IMG/VR virus record: IMGVR_UViG_3300028952_000009
Length of the DNA stretch: 8,388 bases
Reading direction: 5' to 3' (one strand)
Source: a virus
Taxonomy: Duplodnaviria > Heunggongvirae > Uroviricota > Caudoviricetes
The notes under the pieces: model-generated
Databases searched by the model: none
Seen by the model: the letters and a program-made list of their open reading frames with translations, nothing else
What the model was told of the DNA's origin: nothing
Translations under genes and position numbers: made by a program
Shown here: piece after piece, positions 1 to 4,502 of the stretch
Numbering within the stretch: position 1 is the first letter of the stretch
How the letters are laid out: each line of letters begins with the position of its first letter

Positions 1-36
1 TGAACAGGAGGGACAGCTGATAGAAACAGAAGCCAC
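1..36 (-). CDS. insA: IS1 InsA, first 12 codons only (gene runs off the left edge)
   Basis: Minus strand 36 to 1 reads GTG GCT TCT GTT TCT ATC AGC TGT CCC TCC TGT TCA, i.e. (M)ASVSISCPSCS, matching the recalled InsA N-terminus with a GTG start. Too short to be in the ORF track. Confidence 0.65.
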   Translation of the reverse strand, partial: MASVSISCPSCS

Positions 37-91
37 TGGAGCACCTCAAAAACACCATCATACACTAAATCAGTAAGTTGGCAGCATCACC
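1..91 (-). mobile_element. IS1: IS1 insertion sequence, terminal 91 bp; the element continues beyond the left window edge
   Basis: Positions 69-91 read ATCAGTAAGTTGGCAGCATCACC, the reverse complement of the IS1 terminal inverted repeat GGTGATGCTGCCAACTTACTGAT. Positions 1-68 continue as the reverse complement of the adjoining IS1 interior, including the insA start. The match is to recalled IS1 sequence, not a search. The element boundary is at 91/92 and the flanking bases 92-100 are TGATGGTTA. Confidence 0.8.
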
Positions 92-228
92 TGATGGTTA
101 TATCGGGAAAAGGTTACAGAAGGCTGAGGGCATAATTGAAGGGATGTTAATGGCATTAGATATCCGGTTAGAGATGGATATCGTTGTTAATAACTCTAAT
201 TAATATGCCAATTGTTTACTAAAAATTA

Positions 229-254
229 TTAAAAATGGGGCGTTGAGACGCCCC
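229..254 (-). terminator. Rho-independent terminator for the nmpC / IpeX-like transcript
   Basis: GGGGCG (237-242) and CGCCCC (249-254) form a 6-bp GC stem with a 6-nt loop. On the minus strand the stem is followed directly by a U-rich run (complement of 226-236, AUUUUUAAUAAUUUUU). It lies about 140 nt downstream of the nmpC stop. Confidence 0.6.
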
Positions 255-342
255 CAAAAATAAAGGGTAATATATAACAGAAGGTTTATATAGTTAGAAG
301 CAAGGTTGTGCTTCTAAAGGAAGTGGCTTGAGGGAGCCACTT

Positions 343-382
343 ATATGTTGGGGAGGCAAAGCCTCCCGCAACATATCTTTTT
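343..382 (+). terminator. Plus-strand intrinsic-terminator-like hairpin abutting the 3' end of nmpC
   Basis: ATATGTTGGGGAGGC (343-357), loop AAA (358-360), GCCTCCC-g-CAACATAT (361-376, g368 bulged), followed on the plus strand by CTTTTT (377-382). On the minus strand no U-tract follows it, so its terminator polarity is opposite to nmpC. Confidence 0.45.
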
Positions 383-392
383 CGTAATCAGA

Positions 393-1475
393 TTAGAACT
401 GATACACCAGACCTACAGCGACGATGTCGTCGGTATCAATACCAGCTGTTTTGGTAAACTTACTATCGTCAATTAAGTTGATTTTGTAATCAACAAAAGT
501 GGACATGTTTTTATTAAAGTAGTAAGTAGCACCGACATCGACATACTTGACTAAGTCTCGGTCACCATGAACACCAAGGTCTTTACCTTTTGACTGAAGG
601 TAAGCAACAGATGGTCGCAGACCGAAGTCAAACTGATATTGTGCTACTGCTTCAAAGTTTTGTGCTTTGTTTGCAATATGGTTATTACCAAAAACGGTCA
701 TATTCTGAGTTTCAGAATATGTGGTAGCCAGATAGATATTGTTCGCATCATATTTCAGGCCTGCAGCCCATACTTCCGCATTTTTGCCGGAGGCATTGAA
801 TTTGCTCTTACCATAGGCGACCTGACCGTCAGTGCGATCTGATTTAGCATAGGTTGCACCCACGCCGAATCCTTCATACTCATAAGTAGTGGAGAAACCG
901 AAACCATCACCATTGGCTTCAGTTACGTCAGTGCGGTCATTTTTACCCTGATACTGAGCAGCAAAGTTCAGGCCATCGACCAGACCAAAGAAGTCGTTGT
1001 TACGATAGGTTGCAACACCAGTGGTGCGACCAGTCATGAACACATCTGTTTGGGTCCAGGTATCGCCACCGAATTCTGGCAGAACGTCAGTCCACGCACC
1101 GATGTCGTATGCTACACCGTAGTTACGGCCGTAATCGATTGAGCCGTAGTCACCGAATTTCAGGCCTGCAAATGCAAGACGGGTTTTGTCTTTGGAGGAA
1201 CCTTGAGATTCAGCGCGGTTGCCTTTGAATTCATATTCCCACTGACCGAAACCAGTCAGTTGATCGTTGATTTGGGTTTCACCTTTGAAGCCAAGACGGG
1301 CATAAGTAGTATCACCATCATCTGCATCGTTAGAGGAAAAGTAGTGCTTGGCATTAACTTTCCCGTACAGATCCAGCTTGTTACTGTCTTTATTATAAAT
1401 TTCAGCTGCCTGAGCAGACATCGCCATCAGTACTGATGCAGCTACAGCAGAAATTGCCACTGTTAATTTTTTCAT
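393..1475 (-). CDS. nmpC: Outer membrane porin of the OmpC/OmpF/PhoE family; prophage NmpC/Lc-type porin, apparently intact (360 aa)
   Basis: Full ORF from the track. N-terminal signal peptide [23 protein letters not shown] followed by AEIYNKD; porin-typical motifs; C-terminal aromatic ...VGLVYQF. SD-like AAGGG a few nt upstream of the ATG (complement of 1476-1490). Location between the Q region and the lysis cassette matches DLP12 nmpC and PA-2 lc. No IS5 interruption as in K-12. Confidence 0.92.
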
Positions 1476-2063
1476 CGTGAGCCCTTTTTTTTGAACTATT
1501 ATTAAAAAATGATGTCACTGCGCGATAAATATTCATCTAATCAATGTGATTATTTCAAGATGTAAGTTTTAGTTTCTCATTTAATTTGTGAAGTAGATCT
1601 CTATTTTTATCTGAACTTTTTCTATCGAAACCTATTTATGGCTCTTATTTGAACAAAAATAAACCTATTAGCTAATTTATATTAATGGCTGTTATTTATG
1701 GGGGTTCTATAATTCAGTGGTTTAATTTAAATCAGCTAAAAATAACGCCGGAAATTATTTATTGGTTATTTGTTGAGGTTTTCTTATATATTTGTGGTGG
1801 TGTTTTGAACACTCGGTAGCATTCTCATAAATATCATTCAGTGGTTTACGTACGTAAAAAATTGGTTATGCTGTTAAGAGTGGTTACTTCGTCACACAGC
1901 TTAAACCCGCCGTCGAGCTGGTTTTTCCATTTTTTGAGTCTCGATATTAGCTGATAACTCAATACCTGAGTTATTCACTGACTCCGAGTCTGTTACGTTT
2001 CTGCTTTTTTGCGATACGTTGTATTCCCTCAATTTACACCCGCTTTGTCTGCGAGGTGGGGTT

Positions 2064-2279
2064 ATGAAATCCATGGATAAGTTAACAACGGGTGTCGCCT
2101 ATGGCACCTCAGCAGGTAGTGCCGGTTACTGGTTTTTACAGCTGCTCGATAAAGTCACGCCCTCACAGTGGGCAGCAATAGGTGTGCTGGGTAGCCTGGT
2201 ATTTGGCCTGCTGACGTACCTGACAAACCTTTATTTCAAGATTAAAGAAGATAAGCGCAAGGCTGCGAGAGGTGAATAA
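2064..2279 (+). CDS. essD: Class II holin (pinholin), phage 21 S-type, 71 aa with dual-start motif
   Basis: ATG at 2064 is preceded by GAGGTGGGG (2053-2061). The product [26 protein letters not shown]... has two transmembrane segments (a Gly/Ala-rich SAR-like TMD1 and a hydrophobic TMD2) and a charged C-terminus. Met1-Lys-Ser-Met4 is the antiholin/holin dual start known for S21. The track ORF begins at 2019, but no RBS supports that start. Confidence 0.9.
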
Positions 2280-2776
2280 TGCCTCCATCATTACGAAAAG
2301 CCGTTGCTGCTGCTATTGGTGGCGGAGCAATTGCTATAGCATCAGTGTTAATCACTGGCCCAAGTGGTAACGATGGTCTGGAAGGTGTCAGCTACATACC
2401 ATACAAAGATATTGTTGGTGTATGGGCTGTATGTCACGGGCATACAGGAAAAGACATCATGCTCGGTAAAACGTATACCAAAGCAGAATGCAAAGCCCTC
2501 CTGAATAAAGACCTTGCCACGGTCGCCAGACAAATTAACCCGTACATAAAAGTTGATATACCGGAAACAACGCGCGGCGCTCTTTACTCGTTCGTTTACA
2601 ACGTGGGCGCTGGCAATTTCAGAACATCGACGCTTCTTCGCAAAATAAACCAGGGCGATATCAAAGGCGCATGTGATCAGCTACGTCGCTGGACATATGC
2701 TGGCGGTAAGCAATGGAAAGGTCTCATGACTCGTCGTGAGATTGAGCGTGAAATCTGTTTGTGGGGTCAGCAATGA
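2279..2776 (+). CDS. rrrD: SAR (signal-anchor-release) endolysin, T4-lysozyme-like muramidase, phage 21 R-type, 165 aa
   Basis: Start ATG overlaps the holin stop (TAATG at 2277-2281). N-terminal weakly hydrophobic Gly/Ala-rich SAR domain [20 protein letters not shown]. Glu35 (2381-2383) and Asp44 (2408-2410) are at T4L-like spacing. Residue 50 is Ala (gct, 2426-2428); see findings. Confidence 0.9.
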
Positions 2777-3234
2777 ACAGAGTAACCGCGATTATCTCCG
2801 CTCTGGTTATCTGCATCATCGTCTGCCTGTCATGGGCTGTTAATCATTACCGTGATAACGCCATTACCTACAAAGCCCAGCGCGACAAAAATGCCAGAGA
2901 ACTGAAGCTGGCGAACGCGGCAATTACTGACATGCAGATGCGCCAGCGTGATGTTGCTGCACTGGATGAAAAATACACGAAGGAGTTAGCTAATGCGAAA
3001 GCTGAAAATGATGCTCTGCGTGATGATGTTGCCGCTGGTCGTCGTCGGTTGCACATCAAAGCAGTCTGTCAGTCAGTGCGTGAAGCCACCACCGCCTCCG
3101 GCGTGGATAATGCAGCCTCCCCCCGACTGGCAGACACCGCTGAACGGGATTATTTCACCCTCAGAGAGAGGCTGATCACTATGCAAAAACAACTGGAAGG
3201 AACCCAGAAGTATATTAATGAGCAGTGCAGATAG
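2773..3234 (+). CDS. rzpD: Rz i-spanin (inner-membrane spanin subunit), 153 aa
   Basis: ATG at 2773-2775 overlaps the endolysin stop TGA at 2774-2776 (ATGA). N-terminal [23 protein letters not shown], then a coiled-coil-rich periplasmic domain. The track calls a GTG at 2761, which I reject because it lies inside the endolysin and the ATG gives the canonical overlap. Near-identical to recalled lambda Rz. Confidence 0.9.
2993..3175 (+). CDS. rzoD: Rz1 o-spanin lipoprotein, embedded in the +1 frame of Rz, 60 aa
   Basis: ATG at 2993 with AGGAG (2981-2985) 7 nt upstream. Lipoprotein signal [20 protein letters not shown] with lipobox VVG-C20; mature part is proline-rich (PPPPP). Lies wholly inside the Rz ORF in another frame. 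Confidence 0.85.
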
Positions 3235-4352: not shown

Positions 4353-4478
4353 TTCCGGTTTAAGGCATTTCCGTTCTTCTTCGTCGTAACTTAATGTTTT
4401 TATTTAAAATACCCCCTGAAAAGAAAGGAAACGACAGGTGCTGAAAACGAGCTTTTGGGCCTCTGTCGTTTCCTTTCT
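4353..4478. promoter_or_regulatory. cosB: terminase small-subunit (Nu1) binding sites R3, R2, R1, with an AT-rich IHF-type site between R3 and R2
   Basis: R1 CTGTCGTTTCCTTTCT (4463-4478) and its exact inverted copy AGAAAGGAAACGACAG (4423-4438, R2) are seen directly. A degenerate R3-like AAGGCATTTCCGTTCT is at 4353-4368. The AT-rich stretch 4381-4420 is a plausible IHF site. Spacing to cosN and to the Nu1 start (4503) matches the lambda layout. Confidence 0.65.
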
Positions 4479-4502
4479 CTGTTTTTGGCCGTGGAATGAA
4501 CA

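What the first reader, a model, noticed from the sequence alone, without database searches (positions are those of the whole stretch)
229..392. Highly structured IpeX-like 3' UTR behind an intact nmpC: three tandem perfect hairpins plus a terminator
Hairpins at 343-376, 321-342 and 294-317 are packed back to back, followed by an AU-rich linker and the terminator at 237-254. That is far more structure than a simple 3' end needs. Published work on DLP12 and PA-2 places ipeX, a porin-expression inhibitor acting on OmpC/OmpF, in exactly this nmpC/lc 3' untranslated region. Because nmpC is intact here (in K-12 it is disrupted by IS5), transcription of the porin gene should co-produce this RNA, consistent with a porin-swap lysogenic-conversion module. 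One caveat: I recall that UTR being described as roughly 247 bp, whereas here stop-to-terminator is about 165 nt, so the match is not exact.
Basis: partly seen in the sequence, partly recalled or inferred. Interest (0 to 1): 0.5.

Follow-up and report, generated by a model that had tools for sequence, protein, structure and literature searches.

The report
ipeX: phage porin 3' UTR RNA
This is the already described ipeX RNA that trails a prophage porin gene and shuts down the host porins, but its unstructured AU-rich stretch turns out to be a near-perfect antisense match to the ribosome-binding site of host ompC, which reviews say does not exist.

Summary
On the minus strand, the 165 nt after the porin stop codon (window 392 to 228) fold into hairpins at 343-376, 321-342 and 294-317, a weak AU hairpin, and an intrinsic terminator at 237-254. 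The fold is -62.9 kcal/mol, z = -10.3.

The stretch is ipeX itself, differing by 1 nt (a loop base) from K-12 DLP12 and from phage PA-2. The element is therefore already known. It occurs in 2504 of 5426 complete E. coli genomes.

Added result: the "AU-rich linker" (window 257-290) is complementary to the ompC leader, as 15 contiguous bp over the Shine-Dalgarno sequence plus 9 more bp.
- It covers the site used by MicC.
- The predicted duplex energy equals MicC's (-26.7 against -26.5 kcal/mol).
- None of 2000 shuffles reached a 15-bp run.
- In 639 kb of enterobacterial DNA, the only other runs that long were ompC-type leaders.

Pairing with ompF, at the MicF site, is weaker and not statistically separable from background. 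The non-target ompA and the phage porin's own leader lack a site. Papers I could read state that IpeX has no complementarity to its targets. The primary paper was not available.

The parts
393..1475 (-). Intact nmpC/lc-type phage porin gene (360 aa, stop codon at 393-395). It is the parental mRNA of ipeX.
   Evidence: ORF list. Pfam Porin_1 at 1.9e-151 with full profile coverage. 91% identical to PA-2 Lc.
228..392 (-). ipeX: the 3' UTR RNA running from the base after the stop codon to the first U-run of the terminator (about 165 nt).
   Evidence: One-base difference from K-12 and PA-2. Fold z = -10.3. In E. albertii, homology with the porin locus covers exactly positions 1-165 after the stop and ends at the U-run.
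343..376 (-). Hairpin 1: 15 bp with one bulged C and a 3-nt loop. On the + strand it is followed by CTTTTT (378-382), so it may also terminate quuD transcription.
   Evidence: One compensatory C-G to U-A change at the apical pair in E. albertii, and the bulge is lost or changed in other variants.
321..342 (-). Hairpin 2: 8 bp, 6-nt loop.
   Evidence: The commonest IMG/VR variant shortens it to 6 bp. One variant has a C-to-U change that keeps a G-U pair only in the minus-strand RNA.
294..317 (-). Hairpin 3: 9 bp, 6-nt loop.
   Evidence: Two independent one-sided changes give G-U pairs that work only in the minus-strand RNA. The loop is variable.
257..290 (-). Proposed seed region (ipeX nt 103-136), single-stranded apart from a weak AU hairpin. 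Window 272-286 is a 15-nt antisense match to the ompC leader at -21..-7, including the Shine-Dalgarno sequence. Window 258-266 is a 9-nt match to ompC AAAUAAAGG. An overlapping stretch, 255-284, pairs with ompF from its Shine-Dalgarno sequence to codon 3.
   Evidence: Conservation equals that of the stems.
237..254 (-). Intrinsic terminator stem-loop of the porin/ipeX transcript. The U-run lies at 231-235, with a U-rich stretch just upstream.
   Evidence: The stem is invariant in 16 variants while 3 of 4 loop positions vary.
92..203 (+). 3' remnant of the antiterminator gene quuD, convergent with the porin gene.
   Evidence: Identical to K-12 quuD from nt 272 onward. Matches the end of Pfam Phage_antitermQ.
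1..91 (.). End of an IS1 element that interrupts quuD.
   Evidence: 100% identical to the terminal 91 bp of IS1A in locus L172.

Best explanation
Window 228-392 (minus strand) is ipeX, the 3' untranslated tail of an nmpC/lc-type prophage porin gene in a DLP12-like prophage. It is transcribed with the porin mRNA, ends at the intrinsic terminator 237-254, and, according to the literature, is released by processing as an RNA of about 167 nt.

I propose that it works as an ordinary antisense small RNA. Its only extended unstructured segment (nt 103-136, window 257-290) pairs with the translation-initiation region of host ompC. The pairing is 15 contiguous bp covering the Shine-Dalgarno sequence, then a small internal loop, then 9 further bp. 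This is the MicC target site extended by 8 nt into the ribosome-binding site, so it should block ribosome binding. An overlapping segment pairs more weakly with ompF, from the Shine-Dalgarno sequence to codon 3, which is the MicF site.

The three stable 5' hairpins most likely protect the processed RNA and mark its 5' boundary. Hairpin 1 probably also serves as the + strand terminator for the convergent quuD gene.

The phage porin's own leader has no matching site. A lysogen would therefore replace OmpC and OmpF with the phage porin.

Shown here: identity with ipeX, the structure, the complementarity and its improbability by chance, and conservation of the seed. Inferred: that the pairing occurs in vivo and causes the repression, and the roles assigned to the hairpins.

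The confidence of 0.65 applies to the statement as a whole. Identity as ipeX alone is about 0.97.
For: Identity: there is a 1-nt difference from K-12 and PA-2, and the intergenic length is the same.

Structure: z = -10.3. Variable alignment columns are three times rarer in stems than elsewhere (12/92 against 22/71, p = 0.006). Four one-sided changes keep G-U pairs only on the minus-strand RNA, and there is one compensatory pair.

Pairing with ompC:
- The 15-bp run (one G-U) was reached by 0 of 2000 dinucleotide shuffles.
- In 639 kb of enterobacterial DNA, both strands, the only runs of 15 or more apart from ipeX's own antisense were 12 hits. All were AUAUAACAGAGGGUU immediately upstream of ompC-type porin starts.
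- The full duplex is -26.7 kcal/mol, against -26.5 for the MicC 5' end on the same target.
- Net energy after opening costs is -16.3 kcal/mol.
- Cofold gain is -18.4, against a mean of -4.8, sd 2.4 and minimum -9.6 for 25 unrelated initiation regions.

Specificity agrees with what reviews report. ompA has no accessible site (best net energy +1.5). The porin's own leader has a longest run of 7 and a gain of -3.9 to -5.5.

The seed columns are as conserved as the stems (14% variable against 38% for other unpaired columns, p = 0.026). The seed survives in E. albertii, where its one change keeps a G-U pair.

The layout, with the seed just upstream of a terminator that has U-rich flanks, is that of known 3'-UTR-derived sRNAs. 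From my recollection of the 2006 abstract, repression of ompC was Hfq-independent and repression of ompF was Hfq-dependent. That would fit a long duplex with ompC and a weaker one with ompF.
Against: Papers I could read say that IpeX does not base-pair with its targets or has no complementarity to them (PMC3617542; PMC10690425; PMC12197685). I could not open the primary paper. It may contain deletion or mutation data showing that the AU-rich segment is dispensable.

The ompF pairing is not statistically distinguishable from background. Its 10-bp run was reached by 280 of 2000 shuffles. Its cofold gain of -9.7 on a 141-nt target is close to that of ompA (-8.7) and to the background minimum.

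Part of the seed is sequestered in a weak AU hairpin, with an opening cost of about 3.4-4.6 kcal/mol.

Sequence diversity is low (87-100% identity), so covariation support for the hairpins is not significant.

No expression data are available for this strain.
Confidence: 0.65

Rival explanations
1. IpeX acts indirectly, as the literature states. On this view the stacked hairpins titrate or recruit a protein or RNase that ompC and ompF mRNAs need, and the complementarity to ompC is incidental, for example a relic of a porin leader captured in inverted orientation.
For: Reviews state that there is no base pairing. The hairpins are conserved and unusually stable. The + strand of 257-290 reads like a copy of the ompC leader, so the match could be due to descent.
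Against: A duplex of 24 bp on the Shine-Dalgarno sequence of the one well-established target would repress translation whatever its origin. Its energy equals that of MicC-ompC. The seed is under the same constraint as the stems. The hairpin loops carry no GGA motifs of the kind CsrA binds (sequence). The longest exact complementary word is 10 nt, so a BLAST-type search with 11-nt words would miss the match (inference); that could explain the negative reports.
Confidence: 0.2
2. The structure has only local roles: 3' end formation and stabilisation of the porin mRNA, plus back-to-back terminators separating the convergent quuD and porin genes. At native expression levels it would have no meaningful trans effect.
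For: There is a terminator on the minus strand at 237-254. Hairpin 1 is followed by CTTTTT on the + strand. IMG/VR loci L022 and L274 carry an IS200 between the porin stop and hairpin 1, so the direct porin-ipeX junction can be disrupted. As I recall the primary paper, the ipeX phenotype was found with multicopy clones.
Against: According to my recollection of the 2006 abstract, PA-2 lysogeny lowers OmpC through the lc transcript. [quoted passage not shown] Seed conservation and the target match are not explained by a purely cis role. The + strand T-run is reduced to 4 T in several variants.
Confidence: 0.12
3. The hairpins belong to the + strand late-gene control region downstream of Q, that is, a pR'/qut/tR'-like element.
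For: In lambdoid phages the late promoter follows Q directly. The + strand also folds well (z = -6.2).
Against: No sigma-70-like promoter is predicted in 204-392. Published reporter work places the DLP12 lysis-operon promoter upstream of essD. The G-U-preserving substitutions fit only the minus strand. In E. albertii the block travels with the porin and not with the downstream flank.
Confidence: 0.03

Closest known systems
IpeX (ipeX) of cryptic prophage DLP12 (K-12) and phage PA-2; Castillo-Keller, Vuong and Misra 2006
   Same: Same sequence apart from one loop base. Same position after the nmpC/lc stop codon. Same terminator. Length agrees with the listed 167 nt.
   Different: Here the porin gene is intact, whereas K-12 has IS5 58 bp upstream of the stop. 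Here quuD is cut by IS1. The porin protein is 91% identical to Lc, differing in blocks that I take to be surface loops.
MicC, the chromosomal sRNA that represses ompC (Rfam RF00121)
   Same: It targets the same stretch of the ompC leader. Compare ipeX GUUAUAU[AUUAC]CCUUUAUU with the MicC 5' end GUUAUAU[G]CCUUUAUU. Predicted duplex energies are equal.
   Different: There is no overall homology and no Rfam hit. The ipeX seed is internal, lying near the 3' terminator of a 3' UTR, whereas MicC's is at the 5' end of a free-standing gene. The ipeX duplex also extends 8 nt further, over the Shine-Dalgarno sequence.
MicF, the chromosomal sRNA that represses ompF
   Same: The predicted ipeX-ompF duplex covers the same site, from the Shine-Dalgarno sequence to the early codons.
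   Different: The ipeX duplex is much weaker (-18.8 against -27.4 kcal/mol) and is not statistically separable from background.
3'-UTR-derived, processed sRNAs such as CpxQ, DapZ, SroC and NarS (from my own knowledge of the field; NarS paper PMC7038943 listed)
   Same: It is made from the tail of an mRNA and shares the mRNA's terminator. A conserved single-stranded seed lies just upstream of the terminator, and it acts in trans on other mRNAs.
   Different: ipeX carries three additional stable hairpins 5' of the seed. It is phage-borne and targets host genes that compete with its parental gene's product.

Membership tests
IpeX | Sequence homology to the K-12 DLP12 nmpC-quuD intergenic region and to the PA-2 lc downstream region | tested here: met
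   One mismatch in 189 bp to each.
IpeX | Lies directly 3' of an nmpC/lc-type porin stop codon on the same strand and ends at a Rho-independent terminator | tested here: met
   Stop codon at 393-395, terminator at 237-254 with a U-run.
IpeX | RNA of about 167 nt | tested here: met
   The distance from the stop codon to the U-run is 162-165 nt. The 167-nt figure is from PMC12197685. The RNA itself was not observed.
IpeX | Produced from the porin transcript by processing | not testable with these tools
   This needs a Northern blot or 5'/3' RACE. The promoter region is about 95% identical to lc, with both annotated CRP sites conserved.
IpeX | Lowers OmpC and OmpF post-transcriptionally but not OmpA | not testable with these tools
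   Only predicted pairing is available: strong for ompC, weak for ompF, and no accessible site for ompA.
Base-pairing (MicC/MicF-type) antisense sRNA | Complementarity to the target's translation-initiation region beyond chance | tested here: met
   For ompC: 15 + 9 bp, 0 of 2000 shuffles, the only hits that long in 639 kb, and z of about -5.7 against 25 control initiation regions. For ompF the result is inconclusive.
Base-pairing (MicC/MicF-type) antisense sRNA | Seed accessible and conserved | tested here: met
   Opening cost is 3.4-4.6 kcal/mol. 14% of seed columns vary, against 38% of other unpaired columns.
Base-pairing (MicC/MicF-type) antisense sRNA | Regulation lost by seed mutation and restored by a compensatory target mutation | not testable with these tools
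   Experiment required.
MicC family (Rfam RF00121) | Match to the family covariance model | tested here: not met
   No Rfam 15 family hits the region, even at E <= 1. Only the 15-nt seed resembles MicC. The element works like MicC but is not a member of the family.
Intrinsic (Rho-independent) terminator | GC-rich hairpin followed by a U-run on the transcribed strand | tested here: met
   GGGGCGU-CUCA-ACGCCCC followed by AUUUUU.

The most novel reading that the evidence does not exclude
IpeX has been cited for twenty years as a porin regulator that acts without base pairing. I propose that it is in fact a phage-borne mimic of MicC. Its AU-rich segment forms a 24-bp duplex over the ompC Shine-Dalgarno region, and a weaker MicF-like duplex on ompF, and this pairing is the mechanism by which the prophage porin displaces the host porins. 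As far as the papers I could read show, this complementarity has not been reported.
Probability: 0.5. Interest if true: 0.6.

Novelty: already known. Interest (0 to 1): 0.42.

Why it matters
As a locus, this is a routine re-identification of a known prophage sRNA that about half of sequenced E. coli carry. Its mechanism, however, has stayed open since 2006 and is repeatedly described as not involving base pairing.

A specific, strong and conserved complementarity to the ompC ribosome-binding site turns that question into a one-week experiment with compensatory mutations. If confirmed, IpeX would move from 'unusual mechanism' to a clear case of a phage copying a host sRNA's target site to enforce a porin swap. 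That would bear on phage superinfection exclusion, since OmpC and OmpF are phage receptors, and on antibiotic permeability.

Tried and rejected
(1) Rfam scan of the whole window at E <= 1. It found nothing in the region, only a chance mir-578 hit at 4419-4481.

(2) Covariation test on 16 distinct variants. It gave one compensatory pair and a few G-U changes, not better than shuffles, because diversity is too low. A further 120 IMG/VR loci added only recombinants and singletons.

(3) Search for more distant homologs. Chromosomal OmpD/OmpC-like porins of Salmonella, Citrobacter and Enterobacter (61-81% aa identity) carry no ipeX-like tail. No E. coli genome carries the E. albertii variant.

(4) The idea that the late promoter pR' lies in 204-392. 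I rejected it because no promoter-like site is predicted there and the literature places the lysis-operon promoter near essD.

(5) First interaction calculations. Full-length duplexfold gave meaningless whole-molecule duplexes. With 40-nt windows, ranking by duplex energy lost the ompF site. The energy null from shuffles was uninformative, because shuffled RNAs lose their structure, and one shuffle reached -22.3. I relied instead on run length, a genomic scan and real control initiation regions.

(6) Access to the primary paper and to Altuvia et al. 2018 failed.

(7) The origin of the '247 bp' figure could not be resolved. It is not a property of K-12 DNA as annotated today.

(8) The window is neither BL21 Star nor strain 99-3165, even though both match 92-420 at 100%. 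Both have an intact quuD, and BL21 Star has IS1 inside the porin gene.

Full report
**What is there**

The window carries a DLP12-like prophage segment. An nmpC/lc-type porin ORF lies on the minus strand at 393-1475. It is 360 aa, covers the full Pfam Porin_1 profile, and is 91% identical to Lc of phage PA-2. Convergent with it on the + strand is the last third of the antiterminator gene quuD (92-203). That gene is cut by the end of an IS1 element at 1-91. The 189 bp between the two stop codons (204-392) contain the finding.

**Check of the observation**

Read as minus-strand RNA, the 3' tail folds into five elements:
- hairpin 1 (343-376): 15 bp with one bulged C, so not strictly perfect;
- hairpin 2 (321-342): 8 bp;
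- hairpin 3 (294-317): 9 bp;
- a weak AU-only hairpin (271-292);
- a 7-bp GC-rich stem (237-254) followed by AUUUUUAAUAAUUUUU.

The fold is -62.9 kcal/mol, against -29.6 +/- 3.2 for dinucleotide shuffles (z = -10.3). The consensus scan independently a minus-strand terminator.

**Identity**

Aligned with K-12 MG1655, the whole stretch 92-392 differs at one base: window 360, in the loop of hairpin 1. Phage PA-2 (J02580) has the same sequence as K-12.

In K-12, quuD ends at 574339 and nmpC at 574529. That is a 189-bp gap, exactly as here. A 2025 review tabulates ipeX as 167 nt from DLP12, made as part of the porin transcript and processed. I could not open the 2006 primary paper, so I cannot say where 247 comes from.

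No Rfam 15 family matches the region. The sequence occurs in 2504 of 5426 complete E. coli genomes, usually once per genome, and in 36 deposited lambdoid phages.

The region upstream of the porin gene is about 95% identical to that of lc, and both CRP sites annotated in PA-2 are unchanged. Co-transcription of porin and ipeX is therefore plausible, but it is not shown.

**How far the unit extends, and whether the structure is conserved**

Porin-based retrieval from IMG/VR and from one genome per species gave 16 distinct versions of the tail, at 87-100% identity.

In E. albertii, homology covers positions 1-165 after the stop codon and ends at the terminator's U-run. This delimits the unit as porin plus tail. 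Chromosomal OmpD/OmpC-like porins of Salmonella, Citrobacter and Enterobacter (61-81% aa identity) have no such tail.

Formal covariation is weak because diversity is low. There is one compensatory C-G to U-A change, at the apex of hairpin 1, and the counts are not better than shuffles. Two other signals support structure:
- Variable alignment columns are three times rarer in stems than elsewhere (12/92 against 22/71, p = 0.006).
- Four one-sided substitutions in hairpins 2 and 3 create G-U pairs. These are tolerated only in the minus-strand RNA; on the + strand they would be C-A mismatches.

The commonest IMG/VR variant shortens hairpins 2 and 3 by two pairs each. The bulge in hairpin 1 is moved, changed or deleted in others. 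The hairpins are therefore maintained, but not in detail.

**The unexpected part**

I tested whether ipeX could pair with its reported targets, using K-12 leader sequences. A windowed duplex search with opening costs put one region on top: ipeX nt 107-121, 5'-AACCUUCUGUUAUAU-3' (window 272-286). It pairs without interruption, with 14 Watson-Crick pairs and one G-U pair, with ompC 5'-AUAUAACAGAGGGUU-3' at -21 to -7. That stretch includes the Shine-Dalgarno sequence.

With longer windows the duplex continues across a 5/1-nt internal loop into nine more pairs, CCUUUAUUU with AAAUAAAGG. The duplex energy is -26.7 kcal/mol, or -16.3 after paying for opening both RNAs.

The site is the one used by MicC. 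Taken from the K-12 annotation, the MicC 5' end is GUUAUAU-G-CCUUUAUU, and ipeX reads GUUAUAU-AUUAC-CCUUUAUU preceded by AACCUUCU. In the same calculation the MicC-ompC duplex is -26.5 kcal/mol.

Several controls show that this is not chance:
- None of 2000 dinucleotide shuffles of ipeX reached a 15-bp run against the ompC leader; the maximum was 14 and the mean 8.6.
- I scanned both strands of 79 enterobacterial loci (639 kb). Apart from ipeX's own antisense in E. albertii, the only runs of 15 or more were twelve copies of AUAUAACAGAGGGUU, each immediately upstream of an ompC-type porin start.
- The cofold gain is -18.4 kcal/mol for ompC. For 25 unrelated initiation regions of the same length it averages -4.8 +/- 2.4, with a minimum of -9.6.

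The seed columns vary as little as the strong stems (14% and 12%) and less than other unpaired columns (38%, p = 0.026). E. albertii keeps the seed, and its single change preserves a G-U pair.

**Other targets and non-targets**

For ompF, an overlapping segment (nt 109-138) pairs from the Shine-Dalgarno sequence through the AUG to codon 3. This is the MicF site, but the duplex is only -18.8 kcal/mol, against -27.4 for MicF. By run length (280 of 2000 shuffles) and by cofold gain on an equal-length target (-9.7), it is not separable from background. I regard it as plausible but unproven.

ompA has no accessible site; its best net energy is +1.5. As I recall the 2006 abstract, ompA is not a target. 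The phage porin's own leader has the poorest match of all, with a longest run of 7 and a gain of -3.9 to -5.5. That is what a porin-swap module needs.

**Relation to the literature**

The papers I could read say the opposite about mechanism:
[quoted passage not shown] " (PMC10690425).

Full-text searches for IpeX together with complementarity, base pairing or interactome methods found nothing that reports this duplex. The library is incomplete, however. The primary paper and two 2006 reviews were not readable.

One possible reason for the negative reports is that the longest exact complementary word is 10 nt, below the 11-nt word of a standard BLASTN search. This is my inference.

As I recall the 2006 abstract, repression of ompC did not need Hfq while repression of ompF did. 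That would fit a long duplex with ompC and a marginal one with ompF.

**Most likely mechanism, and rivals**

I conclude that the element is ipeX (near certain). I also conclude that it most likely works as a 3'-UTR-derived antisense RNA whose AU-rich 'linker' occludes the ompC ribosome-binding site (about 0.65).

The 5' hairpins would serve as a protective and processing boundary. Hairpin 1 is followed by CTTTTT on the + strand, so it probably also terminates quuD transcription. Both roles are inferred.

Three rival readings remain:
- An indirect, protein-titrating mechanism, as the literature suggests (0.2).
- A purely local role in 3' end formation, mRNA stability and convergent termination (0.12).
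- A + strand late-control element (0.03). This is disfavoured by the absence of a promoter-like site, by the published position of the lysis-operon promoter, and by the strand-specific G-U changes.

**Verdict**

The follow-up adds a concrete, testable mechanism for an RNA whose mode of action has been described as unexplained. This raises the interest above that of a routine re-identification. It remains subject to checking the primary paper and to compensatory-mutation experiments.

Noticed in passing
window 1-91 and 92-203: The end of an IS1 element (100% identical to IS1A) interrupts the antiterminator gene quuD after nt 271 of 384. The prophage's Q function is therefore broken in this strain. 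The two genomes that match 92-420 at 100% (99-3165 and BL21 Star) both have an intact quuD.
   Followed up: yes
L172 (BL21 Star (DE3), NZ_CM137359.1) 669-2528: In BL21 Star the same prophage porin gene is itself split by an IS1. That strain therefore keeps ipeX behind a broken porin gene, as K-12 does with IS5.
   Followed up: partly
L022 2594-3306 (also L274): An IS200-like element (Pfam Y1_Tnp, 5e-38) is inserted 11 nt after the porin stop codon, between the porin gene and hairpin 1. It brings its own terminator-like hairpin, CCTCCGGCATAGCCGGAGGTTTTT. It would uncouple ipeX from porin transcription.
   Followed up: partly
window 343-383, + strand: Read on the + strand, hairpin 1 is followed by CTTTTT, the form of an intrinsic terminator for the convergent quuD transcript. 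The T-run is only 4 T in several variants.
   Followed up: partly
window 257-290, + strand: The + strand reads AAATAAAGG-GTAAT-ATATAACAGAAGGTT, essentially a copy of the ompC leader AAATAAAGG-C-ATATAACAGAGGGTT. The seed may have arisen by capture of a porin leader in inverted orientation.
   Followed up: no
window 4419-4481, minus strand: A long, nearly perfect hairpin (about 25 bp stem, 5-nt loop) surfaced as a chance Rfam mir-578 hit (E = 0.8). It lies just upstream of the nohD-like packaging gene. Its function was not examined.
   Followed up: no
L084-L162, about 700 nt upstream of ompC-type porin starts (for example L162 783-795): A second conserved 13-nt match to ipeX nt 121-133 (AUAAAGGGUAAUA) recurs in six orthologous loci far upstream of ompC, beyond where micF should lie. 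It is probably a chance match repeated by orthology.
   Followed up: no
E. coli genomes annotations: NCBI's pipeline names this prophage porin 'porin OmpC' in many genomes. That could mislead counts of ompC copies. ipeX itself is not annotated in the NC_000913.3 feature table shown for the region.
   Followed up: no
L163 (E. coli HH45) 1501-2830: Here the porin and ipeX are followed by ybcM/ybcL instead of quuD, and homology ends a few bases after the terminator. This is a deletion or rearrangement with an end point right at the ipeX 3' end, as in E. albertii.
   Followed up: no
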